DNA of 64,000 nt, from assembly GCA_018062445.1 (NCBI GenBank), contig JAGOSG010000001.1, positions 58,426 through 122,425 of the forward strand, given 5' to 3'. The notes beneath the pieces were generated by a model. That model was given only the letters and a program-made list of their open reading frames with translations, was not told the DNA's origin and did no database searches. The translations under genes and the position numbers were made by a program. The stretch is from Minisyncoccota bacterium (GTDB taxonomy: Bacteria; Patescibacteriota; Minisyncoccia; Phycocordibacterales; Phycocordibacteraceae). Shown piece after piece: positions 4,986 through 13,791 of this stretch (positions are counted from its first letter, which is position 1; every line of letters starts with the position of its first letter).

Positions 4986-5498
4986 TTGCGTATGAATACA
5001 CTCAACAATTTAGATATAGGTGCACGATTTCACGCAGTTCTCAACTTCATTATTGGCTTTGGTCAAGATTTCCTCCCATTCATAATTGTTGTAGGACTTG
5101 TCGCCGCATTTGCTTTTTTTCTTGGGCGAAATCGTCTTATGCCACTCATTGCTGCAATCTATACAGCTATTCCTCTATATCTCTTTTTTCCTTTTCAAAC
5201 GGCACTACTCCAAGATCACTACATTGCAATAGCGCTCTATCTTTTGTTTGTATTCCTTTCTTTCGTAGCTTTTTCAGGTCTTTCTTACTTCATGGCAAGT
5301 GCTCCTCGATCCTTTCTTCGAGTAGGCGCTATGTCTATACTTGTTGCAGGAACACTTCTCGCTATCGGTATTCACATTCTTCCTTTAGAGCAGATTTATA
5401 CATTTAATAGCGCAACAAAAGCACTCTTTGCCTCAAACCAAGCTTTCTTCTGGTGGCTCCTAGCTCCTTTGGTTGGACTCTTCTTTTTGGAGCGTTAA
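4986..5498 (+). CDS. hypothetical polytopic membrane protein
   Basis: 170 aa, about 5 predicted TM helices, no family recognised. Confidence 0.5.
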   Translation: MRMNTLNNLDIGARFHAVLNFIIGFGQDFLPFIIVVGLVAAFAFFLGRNRLMPLIAAIYTAIPLYLFFPFQTALLQDHYIAIALYLLFVFLSFVAFSGLSYFMASAPRSFLRVGAMSILVAGTLLAIGIHILPLEQIYTFNSATKALFASNQAFFWWLLAPLVGLFFLER

Positions 5499-5676
5499 TA
5501 ATCTATTGTCTTGAGTGGTGCGTCTAAGACGGCCTGCTCACAGTCGACAATATGAATAAATATGCCTTGACTTATGAAGTTAAACGGTGTGGTAGAATAG
5601 AACTCTTGATTCATTTTTTCTAAATATTTCCTTTTTTCAAGAAATTATCTAGATATTTGCTGAAAATCTATCATTC

Positions 5677-6750
5677 ATGTCCGATTTGAAAATTATCGTT
5701 ATTGACGCAAGTACACTGTCGGAATTCAATAACCACAAAAGAATTTTACGCATTGAAGATTCTGCAAGTGGACTTTTGGCATTTATTTCGATTCACAATA
5801 CAAATCGTGGTCCTGCTATAGGGGGAACACGTTATTGGCACTACCAGAAAGAAGAGGATGCCTTGAGGGATTCTCTCCGTCTCTCCCGTGCAATGACATA
5901 CAAATGTGCCATTGCAGAAGTTCCTTTTGGTGGAGCAAAAGGAGTGATTGTAGCTCCGAATAATGCAAGCCAAGAAGAAAAGGATGCAATACTCGTTTCC
6001 TATGCGAAAGCTTTAGCGGAATTGGGAGAGCCTTTTTATACCGGAGAAGACGTGGGACTTAATGAGCATGACGTACAAGTACTCGAACAACATTCAAATA
6101 CCATAGTGGGAAGACCTGAAGTTGGTGGCCTCCCGGCACGATGGGCAGCACTGAGTGTTTTTTATGCCATGGAGGGAGCGCTTGCTATGCAAACAGGCTC
6201 GGCATCTTTTGAAGGTAAAAAAATTGCTATAAAAGGTTTGGGTGGGGTAGGTATTGATCTCTGTGCGCTTCTTGAAAAAGCAGGCGCAAGACTTGTGGGA
6301 GCTGACATTGTTCCTGAAAGAGTCGAGCGTGCTCTAAAAAATCATCCAGCAATTGAAATAGTTGATTCAGCGGTCATACACACCACTGAATCTGACATAT
6401 ATTCGCCGTGTGCTATGGGTAACGAGTTTAATAAAGATACTATTTCAGATCTCAAAACAAAAATTATCTGTGGCGCAGCTAACAATCAGGTGGCCACGAA
6501 AGCTGATGGGCAAGGTTTGTTTGAAGCGGGAATACTCTATATTCCAGATTATGTAGCTAATGCGGGTGGACTGATTAGTGTTGCTGACGAATTACATCCC
6601 TCCGGATATTCAAAAGAACGAGTAGAGAAAAACATTAAACGTATTAGAAACACTGTTGAAAAAATAATAGAAACTTCTCTTAGAGAATTAAGTCCTACCG
6701 GTGAAGTCGCCGATAGAATTGCTGAAGACCGTTTTAAAGAAAGCGTATGA
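5677..6750 (+). CDS. Glu/Leu/Phe/Val dehydrogenase family protein (LeuDH/PheDH-like amino-acid dehydrogenase)
   Basis: GPAIGGTRYWHY and FGGAKGVIVAP catalytic-Lys box, Rossmann GLGGVGIDL; stop overlaps next start (ATGA). Confidence 0.85.
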   Translation: MSDLKIIVIDASTLSEFNNHKRILRIEDSASGLLAFISIHNTNRGPAIGGTRYWHYQKEEDALRDSLRLSRAMTYKCAIAEVPFGGAKGVIVAPNNASQEEKDAILVSYAKALAELGEPFYTGEDVGLNEHDVQVLEQHSNTIVGRPEVGGLPARWAALSVFYAMEGALAMQTGSASFEGKKIAIKGLGGVGIDLCALLEKAGARLVGADIVPERVERALKNHPAIEIVDSAVIHTTESDIYSPCAMGNEFNKDTISDLKTKIICGAANNQVATKADGQGLFEAGILYIPDYVANAGGLISVADELHPSGYSKERVEKNIKRIRNTVEKIIETSLRELSPTGEVADRIAEDRFKESV

Positions 6751-8237
6751 ACAAAAAAGAATCTGACAAGATAGTAGATGATATCCTTACGAAAAAGTCA
6801 GATTTTTGGGAAAAGACCGGAAGAAACACAGCTCTCCGTATATTTAAAAAAGCACGTCACTCTATTTCTGCGTACAAGTTATTTTTGAAAAAAAATAATA
6901 TTTCGATATCTCAAAAAAATACATGGGATGAATTTCAAAAGATACCTACCACTGATAAAAAAACCTACCTGCGCTCTTCGTTACTTTCAGATCTCTGTTA
7001 CTCCCACCTTGCTGGTGGTATCGTCTTCTCTTCGACATCCGGCTCTACCGGTAAACCCTTTTACTTCCCACGCAACGCGACTCTCGATTGGGAGTATTCA
7101 ATCTTTTTAGAATTGTATTTGAAGGGAATATCTACCCAATACAAGAAACGAAGAACTCTGGTCATTATCGGCTTTGGTATGGGTGTGTGGATTGGGGGCC
7201 TCATTACATACAAAGCATTTGAGCTTGTTAATCAACGAACAGGGAACCTTTCTCTTATAACTCCGGGCGTTAACAAAAAGGAAATTTTTAACGCACTCAG
7301 AGAACTTTCGCCACAATATGATCAAACAATTCTTGTCGGATACCCACCTTTTATTAAAGATATTATTGACGAAGCTCAAGAAGAAGCTGTTGAAATAAAC
7401 AAACTCAACATCAAATTTATTTTTGCCGCCGAAGCCTTCACTGAAGCGTTTAGGGAATATCTCGTTGACAAGACGAAGGTAGGGAATCTACACACTGAAA
7501 CAGCAAACATATACGGGACAGCTGATATCGGTGCAATGGCATTCGAGACGCCTACTTCTATACTCATAAGACGTCTGGTTTTAAGTCAACCAACTCTGAC
7601 TGAAAAGGTTTTTGGAAAAATTAACCGTACACCCACCTTAGCTCAATATAATCCTCACTTTGTACATTTTGAAACTATCAAAAATGAGATAGTTCTAACG
7701 GGTGATAGCGAGATACCTCTTGTGCGCTATGCAGTTGGAGATCACGGCGGAACGTACTCGTTTAGAGAACTTAAAAAAATTCTAGCGGAAGCTGGTATTG
7801 ATATAGGAAAAGAAGCGAAGAAAAATAAAATAAAGATCTATGAATTACCCTTTGTGTTTGTTTACGAACGAACCGACCTTTCTACAACTCTCTATGGTCT
7901 TCAAATTTATCCAGAAACCATACGCGAAGTGCTTTTAAGAAAAAAATTCCAATCTTCGCTCACTGGTAAATTTACATTACTCACTACATTTGATGCAGAA
8001 AAGAATCAATTCCTAGAAATGCACATCGAACAAAAGCGCAACAAAAAAATCAACCTAGTTGAACAAGGTCTTTTACTAGAAGCAATAATTCAAAATCTGC
8101 GAATTACTAATTCGGAATTTAGGGAATTATCCGATATGCTAGGTAAGCGTGCAAACCCTAAACTGGTGTTTTGGGACTTGGGCGATCCTACTCATTTTCC
8201 TGTTGGCATAAAACAAAAATGGGTTAAAAAAATATGA
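6747..8237 (+). CDS. adenylate-forming enzyme, phenylacetate-CoA ligase / coenzyme F390 synthetase (PaaK/CapK)-like
   Basis: ANL-type phosphate-binding motif SSTSGSTGKPFYFP and YGTAD motif; 496 aa; translationally coupled to flanking genes. Confidence 0.65.
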   Translation: MNKKESDKIVDDILTKKSDFWEKTGRNTALRIFKKARHSISAYKLFLKKNNISISQKNTWDEFQKIPTTDKKTYLRSSLLSDLCYSHLAGGIVFSSTSGSTGKPFYFPRNATLDWEYSIFLELYLKGISTQYKKRRTLVIIGFGMGVWIGGLITYKAFELVNQRTGNLSLITPGVNKKEIFNALRELSPQYDQTILVGYPPFIKDIIDEAQEEAVEINKLNIKFIFAAEAFTEAFREYLVDKTKVGNLHTETANIYGTADIGAMAFETPTSILIRRLVLSQPTLTEKVFGKINRTPTLAQYNPHFVHFETIKNEIVLTGDSEIPLVRYAVGDHGGTYSFRELKKILAEAGIDIGKEAKKNKIKIYELPFVFVYERTDLSTTLYGLQIYPETIREVLLRKKFQSSLTGKFTLLTTFDAEKNQFLEMHIEQKRNKKINLVEQGLLLEAIIQNLRITNSEFRELSDMLGKRANPKLVFWDLGDPTHFPVGIKQKWVKKI

Positions 8238-9283
8238 AACCTGAACGTATACAATTTAAAGATGTAGAACAGGCTTTAAAAACAAAGAAAGCTTTAGTCA
8301 TTGATGTGTACAGAGAACTACTAGAAGACTTATTTCTTATAAGGAACCCTCGATTTAAATTTGACAAGAACTACATAAAAGAATTTGAAGTATTCATAAA
8401 AGAACACACAGGTGGTCGTGATATGAAGGAATCTGGTTCCTGGTTTTATTTTCCCTGGAATAACCAGCTGGTGCACTACCTGTCTGATTCCGAACATCAG
8501 GAAATTCGCACAACACGAAATAGAAATTTAATCACAAATGATGAGCAGAAGAAACTACGAGATGCACGAATAGCCGTTGCAGGAATGAGTGTGGGGAGTC
8601 ACTGCGCGCTCACACTCAATATGATGGGTATGAGCAGGTATATAAAGATTGCTGATCCTGACACACTCTCAGCTTCAAACATGAACCGCGTGCGATACGA
8701 TTTTACTAAAGTAGGACAAAAGAAAACTTCGGTTGCAAGAGAGTACATTTATCAAATGGATCCTTATGGAGAAGTCGAAGAATACGCAGAAGGAGTTACT
8801 CCAGAAAATATCGATAAATTTCTAAAAGATATTGATGTACTAGTAGAAGAGACCGATCATCTAGAAACAAAAATATTCCTTCGGGAAGAGGCTCGCAAAA
8901 GAGGTATACCAGTTGTGATGGCGACCGACAATGGTGATGGCGTCATTGTTGATATTGAGCGTTTTGATTTAAACCAGGAAACATATCTTTTTAACGGCTT
9001 GATAGGTGATATTACCCTTGAGGAGTTTAAAACATTCCCGCCAACAGAGCTACCGAGACTGGCGACAAAAATTGCCGGTGCAGAGATGGTGGTTCCTCGC
9101 ATGATGTCATCTCTTGGTGAAGTTGGTAAAACCCTCTACTCGTGGCCGCAGTTAGGTGACGCTGCGACCCTCTCGGGAGTAGTGGTCGCCTTTGTAATTA
9201 AACAAATTATACTTGGAATTCCAATTGATTCAGGAAAAATAGACGTAAGTTTGGAGAAGATTTTCCACTCTACACACATATGA
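8234..9283 (+). CDS. ThiF/MoeB (E1-like) family protein with ~105-aa N-terminal extension
   Basis: Rossmann AVAGMSVGS (degenerate GxGxxG), ADPDTLSASNMNRV (DxD…SNLNRQ-like), nucleotide-binding core; coupled ATGA overlaps both sides. Confidence 0.75.
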   Translation: MKPERIQFKDVEQALKTKKALVIDVYRELLEDLFLIRNPRFKFDKNYIKEFEVFIKEHTGGRDMKESGSWFYFPWNNQLVHYLSDSEHQEIRTTRNRNLITNDEQKKLRDARIAVAGMSVGSHCALTLNMMGMSRYIKIADPDTLSASNMNRVRYDFTKVGQKKTSVAREYIYQMDPYGEVEEYAEGVTPENIDKFLKDIDVLVEETDHLETKIFLREEARKRGIPVVMATDNGDGVIVDIERFDLNQETYLFNGLIGDITLEEFKTFPPTELPRLATKIAGAEMVVPRMMSSLGEVGKTLYSWPQLGDAATLSGVVVAFVIKQIILGIPIDSGKIDVSLEKIFHSTHI

Positions 9284-10341
9284 TAGAAAAAGAAGCGCTC
9301 GAGAAAATACTTACTTACGCTGTCCTCGCTCCATCAGGAGATAATTCGCAACCGTGGAAATTTTCTATTCCTTCTCAAAACATCGTTCAAATCTGGAATA
9401 TACCAGGAAAAGATAATCCCATCTTAAACTATCAACAAACAGGGTCATATGTTGCTCACGGCGCTCTAATACAAAACATACGTATCGCTGCTGCAGCGCA
9501 AACTCTTTCTGTCTCAGTAAAATACTTTCCGGGCGAAAAGGACTGCGTTGCAGAAATTACATTTTTTGAAAAGAAAGAAGCTGATACAAGACTTTACGAA
9601 ACAATTAGTAATCGATCTTCAAACAGAAAGCACTATTCAAAAAAACCTCTTTCAGAATCTGATAAGAAAACCCTACTGTTAAGTACACACGGTATTTCGC
9701 CAAGCGTGTCGTTTGTATTTTCAAAAGACGCTGTCGATAAAAACGAGGTGGGGAAGGCACTTGCTACCATGGAAGATATAGCTTTGCAGGTTCCCGAACT
9801 TCATCACTTGTTTTTTAAAGATATTTTATGGGACAAAAAAGGTAACGAGTCCGGTATAGAAGGTCTATACATTAAGTCGTTAGAGTTGCCACCTCCTGCA
9901 CAATTTGCAATGCGCATTCTTAAACATTGGAAAGTAACAGACACGCTCAACAGATCTATTGGGTTATCTAAAAAAATAGCCGCTCAAATGGCTAGTGTAT
10001 ATCGCGACTCTGCAATATATGGCGGTATATTTATTAACAAAAGAACTCCTGAAGCATATGTCCAGGTTGGCGAACTAATGCAACGGGTATGGCTCGAAGC
10101 AACGGCACTGGGTATCGCCGTGCAACCCGTAACCGGTTTAATGTTTTTAACACATCGCGCTGAAGTTAATGACCTAACGCCTATTCCAAAAAAATTTGAA
10201 AAACAAATTCTTGATTCATATCAAAAAGTATTTAATGCATTTGATGCCCCTACAGACTCACACCTAGCATTTCTTATGCGGTTTGGACACAGCAAACCTG
10301 CCAGTGCCCGCTCTCGACGCCTACCCCCTGTTATAGTGTAA
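9280..10341 (+). CDS. nitroreductase-superfamily (SagB/McbC-like FMN oxidoreductase fold) protein, enlarged (353 aa)
   Basis: N-terminal APSGDNSQPWKF (nitroreductase SxxNxQPW box), internal RSSNRKHYS (RRSxRxF-like), C-terminal VGELMQRVWLEATALGIAVQPV. Confidence 0.7.
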   Translation: MIEKEALEKILTYAVLAPSGDNSQPWKFSIPSQNIVQIWNIPGKDNPILNYQQTGSYVAHGALIQNIRIAAAAQTLSVSVKYFPGEKDCVAEITFFEKKEADTRLYETISNRSSNRKHYSKKPLSESDKKTLLLSTHGISPSVSFVFSKDAVDKNEVGKALATMEDIALQVPELHHLFFKDILWDKKGNESGIEGLYIKSLELPPPAQFAMRILKHWKVTDTLNRSIGLSKKIAAQMASVYRDSAIYGGIFINKRTPEAYVQVGELMQRVWLEATALGIAVQPVTGLMFLTHRAEVNDLTPIPKKFEKQILDSYQKVFNAFDAPTDSHLAFLMRFGHSKPASARSRRLPPVIV

Positions 10342-10342
10342 G

Positions 10343-11983
10343 GTGATGGTTTTTTCTTTATCGGCATTTGTTAATCTAGAACTTTTGACTGTCGGCGTTG
10401 TCATTGCCTTCATGGCTGTATTAGGTGCAGTTGTGTATTTTTCTAATACAAAAAGTAGCTCAAATACAATCTTTTTATTTTTCTGCTTCACTTCAATAGC
10501 ATGGAGCGTACTCAACTATCTGTTTTACCAAACACAGGTTGCTGATACCGCTTTTTGGATTATTCGAGGAGTAATCGCGAGCGCTGCGTGGTTTGTATTT
10601 AGTCTTTTTTTATTCCTCTCTACCTTTCCAGAACATAAAATACCATTTAAAAAAACAACCCAGGTCTGGCTATTTCTTTGTGCCGTTTGCGTTTCAATTT
10701 TGAATTTATCCCCGTTCGTATTTACACGCATAGGTACTCTTACCTCAGATGGATCTATCGCAACAATCGTCAATGGTCCTGGAATAGTGATTTTTGGTAT
10801 ATTTGTATTTTTCTGTCTTGTGGGAGGTTTAGTCCATTTCATTTCAAAATTTAAAAAAACCAAAGCACAGGAGCGCACGCCAATGCGTGTCATTCTTGCT
10901 GGTATTGTTATTACATTTACGCTTCTTATTACTTTTAACTTTGTACTCCCGGCATTTTTTGATAATCCTTCGTTTCTCAAGTTTGGAGCTCTATTCATAT
11001 TTCCTTTTATATTTGCAGCATCATTGGCATTACTACGATATAAATTTCTCAACGCCAAAGCCGCGGCAGTCGCGATTCTGACGGCCTTTTTAGCTGTGGT
11101 AATTTTTGGTGAAATAATCTTTTCAAAAGAAACACATTTATTAATTTTTCGCGTAAGCGAATTTCTCCTTGTTCTGTCTTTTGGAATACTACTGATTCGA
11201 GGTGTAACAAAAGAAGTCGAGCAGCGAGAACATATTGAAATACTCGCTGCTGATTTGAGAGTTGCAAACGACAAGCTGAAGGAACTCGACAGACTTAAGT
11301 CGCAATTTCTTTCAATGGCTTCGCACGACCTCCGTGCGCCACTCACCATTATTCGAAACTTCATTTCACTCCTTCTTGATGGTTCATATGGGAAGCTCGC
11401 CCCAGCGGGACAGGAGGGTCTTCAGCAGGTCTTTGATAGGGCAACCGACATGGCAAAATCGGTAGAAACATACCTCGATGTATCGCGTATTGAGCAGGGA
11501 AGGATGAAGTACGATTTTGTAGACATTGAGCTTGTGCCACTTATAAAAAATGCAGTAATGGCGTTCACTCCAAACGCGGAAAAGAAAGGATTGAAATTGA
11601 GCGCCACCTACGATTCTGCACTTGATGGCGTGAAAGCAAAGATCGATGTCTCTAAGATGAATGAAGTCTTGAATAATCTTTTGGATAACACCATCAAGTA
11701 CACACCAACAGGAGAGATGAATCTTAGTGTGAAGCGCATGGGCACCGTTGCTCGTATTTCACTTAAAGACACTGGGGTTGGTATGACAGAAGACACCCTT
11801 AAAAATCTCTTCCAGCTCTTCAGACCAGGCGAGGACTCAAAACGTATCAACCCTGCTTCAACAGGCGTAGGACTCTTCGTCACTAAAGCTCACGTAGAGG
11901 CTCACAGCGGAAAGATCTGGGCAGAGTCTGAAGGTGCAGGAAAAGGCTCCACCTTCATCATGGAGCTCCCGTTGCTTGCCTAG
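10343..11983 (+). CDS. membrane sensor histidine kinase (multi-TM N-terminal sensor, HisKA, HATPase_c); no adjacent response regulator
   Basis: 6-7 TM helices, H-box MASHDLRAPL, N/G1/G2 boxes (NLLDNTIKYT, DTGVGM, GVGLFV); starts 2 nt after preceding gene. Confidence 0.85.
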   Translation: MMVFSLSAFVNLELLTVGVVIAFMAVLGAVVYFSNTKSSSNTIFLFFCFTSIAWSVLNYLFYQTQVADTAFWIIRGVIASAAWFVFSLFLFLSTFPEHKIPFKKTTQVWLFLCAVCVSILNLSPFVFTRIGTLTSDGSIATIVNGPGIVIFGIFVFFCLVGGLVHFISKFKKTKAQERTPMRVILAGIVITFTLLITFNFVLPAFFDNPSFLKFGALFIFPFIFAASLALLRYKFLNAKAAAVAILTAFLAVVIFGEIIFSKETHLLIFRVSEFLLVLSFGILLIRGVTKEVEQREHIEILAADLRVANDKLKELDRLKSQFLSMASHDLRAPLTIIRNFISLLLDGSYGKLAPAGQEGLQQVFDRATDMAKSVETYLDVSRIEQGRMKYDFVDIELVPLIKNAVMAFTPNAEKKGLKLSATYDSALDGVKAKIDVSKMNEVLNNLLDNTIKYTPTGEMNLSVKRMGTVARISLKDTGVGMTEDTLKNLFQLFRPGEDSKRINPASTGVGLFVTKAHVEAHSGKIWAESEGAGKGSTFIMELPLLA

Positions 11984-12792: not shown

Positions 12793-12843
12793 TGAATGGG
12801 GGAGATTCTGAAAATTAGATCATTTTCTGCTATTATTGACAGC

Positions 12844-13791
12844 ATGTCAGAAAAGAAAAAGAGACTCCTCACTGGCCTTCAGCCATCTGGGGCTCTTCAT
12901 ATTGGCAACTACTTCGGCACCATCAAACCCATCGTTGACCTCTTCACCGACCACGAAGGACTTCTGATGGTAGCGGACTACCATGCCCTCACAAGCGTCA
13001 GGAATCCGGAAGAACTTCGAAAGAGTATCGTTGAAAATGCAAAAGATTATTTTGCCGCAGGACTGAATCTTGATAACGCCATCCTCTTCCAGCAATCGAG
13101 CGTTCCTGAGCACGCCGAGCTCGCCTGGATATTTGATTGCCTTGTAACGGTATCCTTTTTAGAGTTGGGACATGCATATAAAGATAAAGTTGCAAAAGGG
13201 CTCGAGGCAAACGCCGGACTTTTCACTTACCCAATGCTTATGGCCGCTGACATTCTTTTGTATGACACAGATATCGTGCCGGTAGGGGAAGACCAGCGCC
13301 AGCACGTCGAGTATGCACGTGAAGCGGCTGCTAAATTTAACAACGCCTACGGTACAACCTTCAAGGAACCGCAAGAGTTGATAAGTAAAACGGTGGGGGT
13401 AGTGCCCGGAACTGATGGACAAAAAATGTCAAAGAGTTACAGAAACACAATTCCGCTTTTTGCCACCCGAGATGAAATACAAAAAGCCGTGATGTCTATC
13501 GTAACGGATTCGTCTGGCGACAAGCCGGAGCATGTGTATGCGATACATACCCTCTACAAGACCGATGCTGAACTTACACCTCTTTATGAAGAGAAGAAAG
13601 GAAAATATAAAGACCTTAAAGAGGCGTTGATCGAAGACATCGACACCTATATCGCCCCTATGCGTGAGAAGCGTGCCTCAATCTCCGACGAGGATGTAAG
13701 GCTCGTATTAAAAGAAGGGGGCGAGAAAGCTCGCGCTCTTGCTTCCGCGAAAATGGCTGAGGTGAGAAAAAAGGTCGGGGTTACGTTATAG
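12844..13791 (+). CDS. trpS: tryptophan--tRNA ligase (alt start 12796)
   Basis: QPSGALHIGNYFG (HIGH region) and KMSKS; 315-331 aa. Confidence 0.9.
   Translation: MSEKKKRLLTGLQPSGALHIGNYFGTIKPIVDLFTDHEGLLMVADYHALTSVRNPEELRKSIVENAKDYFAAGLNLDNAILFQQSSVPEHAELAWIFDCLVTVSFLELGHAYKDKVAKGLEANAGLFTYPMLMAADILLYDTDIVPVGEDQRQHVEYAREAAAKFNNAYGTTFKEPQELISKTVGVVPGTDGQKMSKSYRNTIPLFATRDEIQKAVMSIVTDSSGDKPEHVYAIHTLYKTDAELTPLYEEKKGKYKDLKEALIEDIDTYIAPMREKRASISDEDVRLVLKEGGEKARALASAKMAEVRKKVGVTL

What the first reader, a model, noticed from the sequence alone, without database searches (positions are those of the whole stretch)
5677..11983. Translationally coupled 5-gene operon: LeuDH-like, PaaK-like ligase, E1/ThiF-like with N-terminal extension, enlarged nitroreductase (SagB-like), orphan sensor kinase
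Four ORFs are chained by ATGA stop/start overlaps (6747/6750, 8234/8237, 9280/9283), and the fifth starts 2 nt later. Domain calls rest on motifs: GPAIGGTRYWHY/GGAKG for the amino-acid dehydrogenase, SSTSGSTGKP for the ANL/PaaK ligase, degenerate GxGxxG plus DxD…SNMNR for the E1-like protein, and SxxNSQPW, an RRS-like box and a C-terminal dimer helix for the nitroreductase fold. An E1-like protein with a ~105-aa N-terminal extension (where RiPP E1-like 'C proteins' and MccB carry their peptide-recognition domain) next to a SagB/McbC-type FMN dehydrogenase resembles TOMM or microcin-type peptide modification. No YcaO cyclodehydratase and no obvious precursor peptide are present, and an amino-acid dehydrogenase plus an aryl-acid-type adenylating ligase are atypical for those systems. 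Co-transcription with a 7-TM sensor histidine kinase lacking any response regulator suggests the product could be a signal sensed by that kinase. I do not recognise this gene combination as a described pathway. It is the best candidate in the window for an uncharacterised peptide/metabolite-modification or signalling system.
Basis: partly seen in the sequence, partly recalled or inferred. Interest (0 to 1): 0.78.

Follow-up and report, generated by a model that had tools for sequence, protein, structure and literature searches.

The report
Oxazolone-type pathway wired to a kinase
In a tiny-genome Patescibacteria (CPR) bacterium, a tightly packed five-gene operon appears to make an oxazolone-type small molecule from amino acids by an undescribed route and is genetically tied to its own membrane sensor kinase; it is not a peptide-modification system.

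Summary
The five ORFs, the ATGA overlaps and the motifs are all real. The source is a Paceibacterota (CPR) genome. The TOMM/microcin reading is not supported. The ThiF-like and nitroreductase proteins are the two halves of a split Rv1355c/TrzS-type enzyme, which in Mycobacterium is an ATP-dependent cyclase plus flavin desaturase that turns N-acyl amino acids into oxazolones. The N-terminal extension belongs to that family and is not an RRE. There is no YcaO, no SagB-type match and no conserved small ORF.

What is new is the front end and the wiring. The usual N-acyltransferase is absent. In its place is an unclassified PaaK-fold ligase, preceded by an amino-acid dehydrogenase. In other species that dehydrogenase is replaced by HisC-like or IlvE aminotransferases.

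In 80 species-level loci:
- ligase with ThiF: 74-75
- nitroreductase: 58-66
- the same 7TM kinase: 63-65

Gene order is shuffled between lineages, and natural DH-ligase, ligase-ThiF and DH-ligase-ThiF fusions exist.

Best model: a CoA-independent route from amino acid and 2-oxo acid to an N-acyl amino acid and then an oxazolone or dehydro-amino acid, coupled to a dedicated kinase. The product and the kinase's ligand are inferred, not shown. I rate it a new variant of a known kind.

The parts
5677..6750 (+). Amino-acid dehydrogenase of the Leu/Phe/Trp-DH branch (357 aa). It interconverts a hydrophobic, probably bulky or aromatic, amino acid and its 2-oxo acid.
   Evidence: Pfam ELFV_dehydrog_N and ELFV_dehydrog. 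Bit scores are 254 to LeuDH 6ACF, 225 to TrpDH 5B37 and 285 to the ScyB model, whose cutoff is 600. The catalytic Lys is invariant. LeuDH A113 is Gly in 28/28 and V291 is Leu in 27/28 cluster-linked DHs. In other species the slot is filled by HisC-like or IlvE aminotransferases or a divergent ELFV DH. It is fused to the ligase in P0249 and P0324.
6747..8237 (+). PaaK-fold adenylate-forming ligase of an unclassified family (496 aa). Proposed to replace the N-acyltransferase of known oxazolone pathways.
   Evidence: No Pfam family, and 31 bits to PaaK TIGR02155 against a cutoff of 646. AF2 model pLDDT 85. Foldseek hits: PaaK1 2Y27 at E 2e-20, BT_0428, and the CoA-independent ligases AjiA1 and ClxA. 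Family-invariant TSGSTG-P, YxxGD and C-terminal K489. About 490 clusters at 50 % identity with E<=1e-30.
8234..9283 (+). ThiF-like ATP-dependent cyclase (349 aa), the N-terminal half of a split TrzS/Rv1355c-type oxazolone synthetase. It includes a family-specific N-terminal domain (residues 1-95).
9280..10341 (+). Double-domain nitroreductase-fold flavoenzyme of the Acg/FDO type (353 aa), the C-terminal half of the split TrzS-type enzyme. Proposed C-alpha/C-beta desaturase.
   Evidence: PRK07877 at 183 bits (model positions 373-713) and the Acg-family model at 127 bits. The best PDB sequence match is Acg 2YMV. APSxxNxQPW, R112/R116 and W184 are invariant across Patescibacteria and actinobacterial TrzS-type proteins, and a C-terminal SxR motif is seen in the aligned representatives.
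10343..11983 (+). Dedicated sensor histidine kinase (546 aa) with a 7TM N-terminal sensor, a coiled-coil linker, HisKA and HATPase. It has no cytoplasmic sensor domain.
   Evidence: PF16927, PF00512 and PF02518. Full-length orthologues (about 280-600 bits, query 5-545) lie next to the enzymes in 63-65 of 80 loci.
4986..5498 (+). Possible accessory gene: a 170-aa polytopic membrane protein with no known family.
   Evidence: Homologues lie directly upstream of the DH or ligase in 7 of 80 loci from different lineages. No Pfam, NCBIfam or PADLOC hit. Membership is weak.
5499..5676 (+). 178-nt leader. It holds the only sizeable intergenic gap next to the operon and a TGgTAGAAT extended -10-like element at 5590-5598.
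   Evidence: Read from the sequence. The consensus scan did not list it, because the TTGACT at 5567-5572 is 20 nt upstream. No Rfam match. Low weight.

Best explanation
This is a Patescibacteria-specific variant of the N-acyl-amino-acid to oxazolone (azlactone) pathway, built to run without acyl-CoA and coupled to its own sensor kinase.

Proposed steps:
1. The dehydrogenase (an aminotransferase in other species) interconverts a hydrophobic or aromatic amino acid and its 2-oxo acid. The enzyme class is shown. The substrate is inferred.
2. The PaaK-fold ligase adenylates a carboxylic acid, most simply that 2-oxo acid. Like the related ligases ClxA and NatL2, it then couples the acid directly to an amino-acid amine, giving an N-acyl amino acid. 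It thereby replaces the acyl-CoA-dependent N-acyltransferase OxzA/TyzA/TrzA. This step is inferred.
3. The ThiF-like protein adenylates the N-acyl amino acid carboxylate, and the amide oxygen closes the oxazol-5(4H)-one ring. This rests on homology to TrzS/TyzB/OxzB.
4. The Acg/FDO-type flavoprotein desaturates C-alpha/C-beta, giving a 4-ylidene-oxazolone. That product may hydrolyse to an N-acyl dehydro-amino acid. This also rests on homology.
5. The 7TM kinase, which has no cytoplasmic sensor domain, either senses this lipophilic product or controls its production. In other species it signals through CheY-like receiver-only proteins. The genetic link is shown. The ligand is inferred.
For: - Split-TrzS identity: NCBIfam PRK07877 matches both halves, and the concatenated proteins align colinearly at 29 % identity with 708-aa fusions. 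The catalytic Asp and the FMN-type motifs are conserved.
- The biochemistry of TrzS, TyzBC and OxzB is published (PMC12856293, PMC10404671, bioRxiv 10.1101/2020.06.11.147165).
- Conservation in 80 species loci: ThiF 74-75, NTR 58-66, kinase 63-65. All lie on one strand, and gene order differs between lineages.
- Non-orthologous displacement at the first position: Leu/Phe-type DH, HisC-like aminotransferase (15 loci), IlvE, or a divergent ELFV DH.
- Full-length natural fusions exist: DH-ligase, ligase-ThiF, ThiF-ligase and DH-ligase-ThiF.
- The ligase fold is nearest PaaK1 and BT_0428. The CoA-independent amide/ester ligases AjiA1 and ClxA rank next (PMC7204872, PMC9400959, PMC12519233).
- No TrzA-like acyltransferase is present in the window or the loci.
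- Receivers, a TrmB regulator and an ABC exporter recur as accessories.
Against: - No product is known, and nothing shows that the ligase makes an amide rather than a CoA thioester.
- The acyl donor and the amino acid are both unidentified.
- The DH is present in only 27-29 of 80 loci, and some loci show no obvious amino-acid/2-oxo-acid enzyme.
- The TrzS residue R540, important for desaturation, could not be mapped. The plausible equivalent positions are not Arg in the Patescibacteria proteins.
- TrzS and TyzC use O2, whereas many Patescibacteria live in anoxic settings.
- Each half scores below the family's curated cutoff of 476 bits.
- The acyltransferase test used a single-sequence probe, which is weak.
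- Verrucomicrobia homologues of the ligase (41 % identity) work in an unrelated glycan context.
Confidence: 0.5

Rival explanations
1. RiPP pathway of the TOMM or microcin C/pantocin type. The E1-like protein would bind a precursor peptide through its N-terminal domain and adenylate or scaffold it, and the flavoprotein would oxidise azolines.
For: PaaA and MccB are among the structural neighbours of the ThiF core. ThiF-like proteins and FMN dehydrogenases do co-occur in LAP/TOMM clusters (PMC12596934).
Against: - No YcaO is present in the window region or in any recurrent neighbour family.
- No SagB-type or ocin_ThiF model matched.
- MccB and PaaA align over only ~220-230 residues, about the same as MoeB, so the N-domain is not matched.
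- The N-domain is instead homologous to that of TrzS-type small-molecule enzymes.
- No small-ORF family is conserved near the clusters. All recurrent ones are antisense or off-frame shadows of known genes.
- The ligase-ThiF and DH-ligase-ThiF fusions point to small-molecule hand-off.
Confidence: 0.04
2. The same enzymes make a different heterocycle or conjugate. The ligase makes a CoA thioester or another conjugate from the 2-oxo acid or amino acid. The ThiF/NTR pair then activates and oxidises a carboxylate that is not an N-acyl amino acid, giving for example a lactone, a hydantoin-like ring or a dehydro-acid.
For: [quoted passage not shown] The best structural neighbour, AclA 9EGB, has an unknown reaction. 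The TrzS R540 equivalent is not evidently conserved. Identity to TrzS-type proteins is only 29-37 %.
Against: Both halves, including the N-domain, are colinear with TrzS-type enzymes and keep the catalytic motifs. Every characterised ThiF plus FDO pair acts on N-acyl amino acids (PMC12856293, PMC10404671, PMC12479983).
Confidence: 0.28
3. A catabolic or salvage route for aromatic or branched-chain amino acids: amino acid to 2-oxo acid to acyl-CoA, PaaK-like. The kinase would sense nutrient availability, and ThiF/NTR would be unrelated or detoxifying.
For: The DH plus PaaK-fold ligase resemble the first steps of Phe degradation. BT_0428-type ligases act in aryl-acid metabolism.
Against: The ligase scores 31 bits against a PaaK cutoff of 646. 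No paa genes, decarboxylase or 2-oxoacid oxidoreductase lie in the clusters. The ligase is more tightly linked to ThiF (74-75 of 80 loci, plus fusions) than to the DH (27-29 of 80).
Confidence: 0.08
4. Activation of a ubiquitin-like or sulfur-carrier protein (MoeB/ThiF/E1 function), or a CBASS-like defence E1.
For: The ThiF Pfam domain is present. There are weak matches to MoeB/ThiF equivalogs and to PADLOC E1-E2 models at 53 bits or less.
Against: - All MoeB and ThiF models score far below their cutoffs.
- There is no conserved Cys or Zn motif.
- No ThiS/MoaD-like gene with a C-terminal GG is nearby.
- There is no E2 or JAB domain, and the other four proteins have no meaningful PADLOC hits.
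Confidence: 0.02

Closest known systems
TrzAS (Rv1356c-Rv1355c), N-acyl tryptazolone biosynthesis in Mycobacterium and Rhodococcus (PMC12856293)
   Same: The ThiF-like cyclase and FDO nitroreductase have the same architecture, including the N-terminal domain. This is the best NCBIfam match for both proteins. Alignment is colinear, with the adenylation Asp and FMN-type motifs conserved. A signalling gene sits next to the locus in both (c-di-GMP genes there, a kinase here).
   Different: Here the enzyme is split into two translationally coupled genes. The TrzA N-acyltransferase is absent. A PaaK-fold ligase and an amino-acid DH or aminotransferase are present instead. The host is Patescibacteria. 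Identity is only 29-37 %. The R540 equivalent is not evident.
TyzACB (M. tuberculosis) and OxzAB (Pseudoalteromonas rubra), tyrazolone and phenazolone biosynthesis; NasY-ThiF-NTR clusters for N-acyl dehydrotyrosines (PMC10404671, bioRxiv 10.1101/2020.06.11.147165, PMC12479983)
   Same: Separate (Tyz) or fused (Oxz) ThiF and NTR-fold desaturase act on an N-acyl aromatic amino acid. The genes are operon-like, with overlapping or near-touching ORFs.
   Different: All of those start from acyl-CoA and an N-acyl amino acid synthase. None has a ligase, an amino-acid DH or a linked histidine kinase. The models likely to cover OxzB-type proteins score lower here (PRK14851 at 76 and 151 bits).
ClxA and NatL2/AjiA1, PaaK-like ATP-dependent amide/ester ligases of benzoxazole pathways (PMC9400959, PMC7204872, PMC12519233)
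   Same: The fold is the same compact PaaK-type ANL fold (Foldseek E 7e-15 to 1e-13). They set a precedent for coupling an acyl-adenylate directly to a nucleophile without CoA.
   Different: Sequence identity is only 14-16 %. Their substrates are aminohydroxybenzoates. The window's ligase is about 70 residues longer than PaaK-type enzymes. Its chemistry is untested.
TcdA/CsdL, the ThiF-like tRNA t6A cyclodehydratase
   Same: It is an ATP-dependent cyclodehydration of an N-acylated (carbamoyl) amino acid carboxylate to an oxazolone-type ring by a ThiF fold lacking the Zn motif. It is among the best PDB sequence matches.
   Different: Its substrate is tRNA, it has no flavoprotein partner, and it lacks the N-terminal domain.

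Membership tests
Oxazolone biosynthetic systems (OxzAB / TyzACB / TrzAS) | ThiF-like ATP-dependent cyclase with the conserved adenylation Asp and SNxNR motif | tested here: met
   PRK07877 at 293 bits over model positions 27-340. D208 and ADPDxLSxSNxNR are invariant. Aligned with the Rhodococcus and Mycolicibacterium fusions.
Oxazolone biosynthetic systems (OxzAB / TyzACB / TrzAS) | Nitroreductase-superfamily flavin-dependent oxidase (FDO) fused or adjacent to the ThiF gene | tested here: met
   The 4-nt overlap with the ThiF gene. PRK07877 positions 373-713 at 183 bits, and the Acg family at 127 bits. Shared invariant motifs.
Oxazolone biosynthetic systems (OxzAB / TyzACB / TrzAS) | Adjacent N-acyl amino acid synthase / N-acyltransferase (OxzA, TyzA, TrzA, NasY) | tested here: not met
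   No acyltransferase domain in the window's neighbours or in L001-L004. No recurrent neighbour family of that kind. A TrzA-like probe from Rhodococcus found nothing even at E<=10; that probe is a weak, single-sequence one.
Oxazolone biosynthetic systems (OxzAB / TyzACB / TrzAS) | Whole-protein score above the curated Rv1355c-family cutoff (476 bits) | tested here: inconclusive
   Each split half is below the cutoff (293 and 183 bits). Their sum roughly equals it.
Oxazolone biosynthetic systems (OxzAB / TyzACB / TrzAS) | Product is an N-acyl oxazolone or N-acyl dehydro-amino acid | not testable with these tools
   Needs expression and LC-MS.
TOMM / LAP azoline-azole RiPP systems | YcaO cyclodehydratase in the cluster | tested here: not met
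   None among the neighbours in the window or the loci.
TOMM / LAP azoline-azole RiPP systems | SagB/McbC-type dehydrogenase (TIGR03605) and ocin_ThiF_like docking protein (TIGR03693) | tested here: not met
   Neither model appears among the NCBIfam hits at E<=0.01.
TOMM / LAP and MccB/PaaA RiPP systems | Precursor peptide gene nearby | tested here: not met
   No conserved small-ORF family (18-95 aa) within 2 kb of 80 clusters. Hypervariable peptides could escape this test.
MccB / PaaA RiPP adenylating enzymes | N-terminal RRE / peptide-clamp domain | tested here: not met
   [not shown]
MoeB / ThiF sulfur-carrier adenylyltransferases | Curated equivalog score, conserved Cys/Zn motif, and an adjacent ThiS/MoaD | tested here: not met
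   Scores of 42-89 bits against cutoffs of 152-449. No conserved Cys. No small GG-ending ORF.
PaaK phenylacetate-CoA ligase | Equivalog-level sequence match and a paa catabolic context | tested here: not met
   31 bits against a cutoff of 646. The fold is shared, but there are no paa genes nearby.
ELFV Leu/Phe/Val/Trp dehydrogenases | Both ELFV domains above the gathering score, and the catalytic Lys | tested here: met
   81 and 69 bits against cutoffs of 25 and 23. The GGAKG Lys is present in 28/28. It does not reach the ScyB equivalog cutoff (285 against 600).
Two-component sensor kinases with HisKA_7TM sensor | 7TM N-terminal region, HisKA and HATPase_c | tested here: met
   33.9, 47.5 and 73.6 bits, all above their cutoffs.
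Two-component sensor kinases with HisKA_7TM sensor | Cognate response regulator | tested here: inconclusive
   None detected in the 64-kb window. Receiver-only proteins lie next to the cluster in about 18-20 other species.

The most novel reading that the evidence does not exclude
Patescibacteria carry a lineage-wide chemical signalling module. It would make an oxazolone or dehydro-amino-acid signal from a single amino acid pool (amino acid plus its own 2-oxo acid) using only ATP, NAD+ and flavin, with no CoA and no fatty acids. The co-evolving 7TM histidine kinase would sense that signal and relay it through CheY-like receivers. This would be a self-contained autoinducer-type circuit in ultra-small episymbiotic bacteria, and the first assigned physiological role for bacterial oxazolones.
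Probability: 0.2. Interest if true: 0.85.

Novelty: new variant of a known kind. Interest (0 to 1): 0.62.

Why it matters
Oxazolone pathways were discovered only in 2021-2025, and their physiological role is an open question. The authors speculate about signalling and stress adaptation (PMC12856293). Here the same cyclase/desaturase pair is kept in genome-reduced Patescibacteria in at least about 160 species-level genomes. It is rebuilt with a ligase-based front end that may need no acyl-CoA. It is also locked to a dedicated 7TM kinase, often with receiver proteins and sometimes with an exporter.

That gives three things:
- A concrete, testable link between oxazolone-type metabolites and two-component signalling.
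- A candidate function for a large unclassified ligase family with no Pfam model.
- A rare example of conserved specialised metabolism in bacteria thought to have almost none, which is relevant to how they interact with hosts.

Tried and rejected
- **TOMM/microcin reading:** rejected, for the reasons given under rival explanations.
- **Tryptophan clue from the neighbouring TrpRS:** TrpRS follows the kinase directly in L010, L017, L038, L075 and L077, and lies within 1.7 kb in the window, L006 and L061. However, DnaK/DnaJ recur upstream in 12-14 loci, and a class II aaRS recurs downstream in 9. I therefore treat the adjacency as housekeeping synteny.
- **ScyB (Trp DH) assignment:** rejected. 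It scores 285 bits against a cutoff of 600, and LeuDH structures score as well or better.
- **Defence system:** rejected.
- **Riboswitch or leader RNA:** none found.
- **Sigma-70 scan:** not enriched, with 11 sites found against 18.6 expected.
- **Mapping TrzS R540/Q651:** The candidate columns are not conserved.
- **AclA (PDB 9EGB), the top structural neighbour:** no paper in the held library.
- **AFDB fold search:** unavailable.
- **Verrucomicrobia ligase homologues:** these turned out to sit in glycan-type clusters and are uninformative for this pathway.

Full report
**Observation**

The five ORFs lie exactly where stated, all on the + strand: 5677-6750, 6747-8237, 8234-9283, 9280-10341 and 10343-11983. 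The junctions read GT**ATGA**AC, AT**ATGA**AA and AT**ATGA**TA. The fourth gene ends TAA, followed by G and then GTGATG, which starts the kinase. The quoted motifs are in the translations.

Pfam and NCBIfam confirm four of the five domain calls:
- ELFV dehydrogenase
- ThiF, from residue 95
- nitroreductase
- HisKA_7TM, HisKA and HATPase_c

The second protein has no Pfam family and only 31 bits to PaaK, whose cutoff is 646. The operon has somewhat lower GC (0.37-0.42) than its flanks (0.43-0.46). It sits between grpE-dnaK-dnaJ and trpS.

**Source and distribution**

The closest proteins (96-97 % identity) are from a Candidatus Paceibacterota MAG. The ligase has about 490 clusters at 50 % identity with E<=1e-30.

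A scan of one genome per GTDB species found at least 162 species with a relative, and 80 loci were kept. These are named Kaiser-, Lipton-, Wolfe-, Adler-, Staskawicz-, Wildermuth-, Magasanik- and Gottesmanbacteria, Saccharimonadales and others, plus three Verrucomicrobia.

Mapping the window's proteins onto these loci, and clustering all neighbours, gives the following counts out of 80 loci:

| Gene | Loci out of 80 |
|---|---|
| ThiF | 74-75 |
| NTR | 58-66 |
| The same full-length 7TM kinase | 63-65 |
| Leu/Phe-type DH | 27-29 |

Gene order differs between lineages:
- DH-LIG-ThiF-NTR-HK
- NTR-ThiF-DH-LIG-HK-RR
- DH-LIG ... NTR-ThiF-HK
- ThiF ... DH-LIG-HK

Conservation despite shuffling argues for function rather than inherited synteny.

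**What the ThiF/NTR pair is**

Both proteins have their best NCBIfam match to one fused family, PRK07877 'Rv1355c family'. ThiF matches model positions 27-340 and NTR matches positions 373-713 of 722.

Rv1355c is TrzS, which has been characterised. [quoted passage not shown] It performs ATP-dependent cyclisation and O2-dependent desaturation of N-acyl-tryptophan to an oxazolone (PMC12856293). TyzB/TyzC and OxzB do the same with N-acyl-Tyr and N-acyl-Phe (PMC10404671; bioRxiv 10.1101/2020.06.11.147165).

tblastn against plasmids finds Rhodococcus and Mycolicibacterium 'Rv1355c family' proteins aligned from residue 6 of the window's ThiF protein, at 35-37 % identity. The concatenated ThiF+NTR aligns colinearly with two 708-aa fusions at 29 % identity. 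The shared features are:
- the N-terminal domain
- ADxDxLxxSNxNR
- the EExD Asp, which is D208 here and the type of residue mutated as D217A in TrzS
- APSGxNxQPW, RxxxR and the C-terminal SRR

The NTR's only PDB sequence relative of note is Acg 2YMV, the same structure the TrzS authors used.

**The N-terminal extension**

**RiPP tests**

- No YcaO is present.
- No SagB or ocin_ThiF model matched.
- No conserved small ORF lies near 80 clusters. All recurrent 'families' are shadows of aminotransferase, TrpRS, receiver or tRNA genes.

**What is different from known oxazolone clusters**

All described clusters carry an N-acyl amino acid synthase (PMC12856293, PMC12479983). None is present here.

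Instead the invariant partner is the ligase. Its AF2 model (pLDDT 85) is nearest to PaaK1 and BT_0428. AjiA1, ClxA and 2-hydroxyisobutyryl-CoA ligase follow. ClxA and NatL2 (the AjiA1 homologue) couple acyl-adenylates directly to nucleophiles without CoA (PMC9400959, PMC7204872, PMC12519233). The family keeps the P-loop TSGSTG-P, the YxxGD hinge and a C-terminal Lys.

**The first gene**

The window's DH scores 254 bits to LeuDH, 225 to TrpDH and 166 to PheDH structures. Against 1LEH, its pocket positions are L40 to Ile, A113 to Gly and V291 to Leu. Gly is invariant (28/28) and Leu nearly so (27/28) in cluster-linked DHs. From my own recollection of PheDH/LeuDH engineering work, Gly/Leu is the PheDH-type pair, which suggests a bulky side chain. 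This is a lead, not a test.

Where this DH is missing, the ORF directly upstream of the ligase is one of the following:
- a HisC-like class I/II aminotransferase (15 loci)
- a genuine IlvE (366 bits against a cutoff of 279)
- a divergent ELFV DH

All of these interconvert an amino acid and its 2-oxo acid. That is therefore the required function.

**Fusions**

Four cluster representatives are full-length colinear fusions:

| Protein | Arrangement | Length (aa) |
|---|---|---|
| P0249 | DH-ligase | 847 |
| P0263 | ligase-ThiF | 863 |
| P0328 | ThiF-ligase | 880 |
| P0324 | DH-ligase-ThiF | 1242 |

This supports consecutive steps from DH to ligase to ThiF.

**The kinase**

It consists of a 7TM region, a linker, HisKA and HATPase, with no cytoplasmic sensor domain. 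Orthologues match over the full length. The window has no receiver. Receiver-only proteins lie inside or beside the cluster in about 18-20 other species, with up to three in tandem. Other recurrent neighbours are a TrmB-type regulator (8 loci), an ABC exporter directly after the kinase (7 loci), ApbE (5 loci), an unknown 310-aa ORF between NTR and HK (6 loci), and the 170-aa membrane ORF found upstream in the window (7 loci).

**Model**

1. An amino acid and its 2-oxo acid are interconverted.
2. The ligase makes an N-acyl amino acid. The most economical version is 2-oxo-acyl-AMP plus an amino acid, which would need no CoA.
3. ThiF closes the oxazolone ring.
4. The FDO desaturates it, possibly followed by hydrolysis to an N-acyl dehydro-amino acid as in stieleriacine-type products (PMC12479983).
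5. The 7TM kinase senses the product or controls its production.

The enzyme classes, the homology to TrzS, the linkage and the fusions are shown. The ligase chemistry, the substrate identities, the product and the kinase ligand are inferred.

**Caveats**

- The TrzS R540 equivalent is not evident.
- O2 dependence may not suit anaerobes.
- The DH or aminotransferase is not universal.
- Verrucomicrobia ligase homologues work in glycan clusters.

**Literature**

No paper in the held library links Patescibacteria with oxazolones, ThiF/NTR or this gene set. The oxazolone papers do not mention ligases, kinases or CPR.

**Verdict**

The peptide-modification interpretation is replaced by a split TrzS-type oxazolone synthetase with a new ligase-based front end and a dedicated kinase. 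This is a new variant of a known kind, with moderately high interest.

Noticed in passing
window 12796-13791 (TrpRS); L010, L017, L038, L075, L077: TrpRS lies directly after the kinase in five other species (a gap of 52 nt or less, or overlapping). It lies within 1.7 kb in the window, L006 and L061. DnaK/DnaJ upstream (12-14 loci) and a class II aaRS downstream (9 loci) also recur. This looks like insertion into a housekeeping syntenic block rather than a tryptophan link.
   Followed up: partly
window 4986-5498: A 170-aa polytopic membrane protein without any family assignment recurs directly upstream of the DH or ligase in 7 of 80 loci. It could be an accessory component such as an export or anchoring protein.
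   Followed up: partly
window 5677-11983 versus its flanks: The operon's GC content (0.37-0.42) is lower than that of the flanking chaperone and aaRS genes (0.43-0.46). This may reflect a different history or different codon constraints.
   Followed up: no
P0249, P0263, P0324, P0328 (metagenomic proteins): Natural full-length fusions exist: DH-ligase, ligase-ThiF, ThiF-ligase and the tri-domain DH-ligase-ThiF. They would make convenient single-polypeptide targets for biochemistry.
   Followed up: yes
L076, L078, L081 (Verrucomicrobia MAGs): Ligase homologues at 41-42 % identity occur without ThiF, NTR or HK. In L076 the neighbours are GT2 glycosyltransferase, methyltransferase, Asn-synthase-like and GFO/IDH/MocA genes. 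The ligase family may have an older role in glycan modification.
   Followed up: partly
L029:14889-15818 and five other loci; L044:15285-17069; L031:4483-5229; L084:15330-16112: Lineage-specific accessories of the cluster are an unknown 310-aa ORF between NTR and the kinase (6 loci), an ABC exporter right after the kinase (7 loci), ApbE flavin transferase right before the ligase (5 loci), and a TrmB-type regulator (8 loci).
   Followed up: partly
L056; L057; L063; L009: Some clusters are locally amplified. L056 has two ligase-ThiF pairs, L057 has three tandem kinase paralogues, L063 has two, and L009 has three tandem receiver genes.
   Followed up: no
L088:5137-6987 (Kitasatospora plasmid NZ_CP108248.1): A 616-aa protein has a TrzS-like ThiF domain at its C-terminus and an unassigned ~350-aa N-terminal part. 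It lies next to a ketoacyl-ACP synthase III. This is another undescribed context for this ThiF clade.
   Followed up: no
[not shown]
   Followed up: partly
L086 (Rhodococcus qingshengii plasmid): The plasmid-borne TrzS homologue sits beside a GGDEF-domain gene. This echoes the c-di-GMP genes next to trzAS in M. tuberculosis and parallels the kinase linkage seen here.
   Followed up: no
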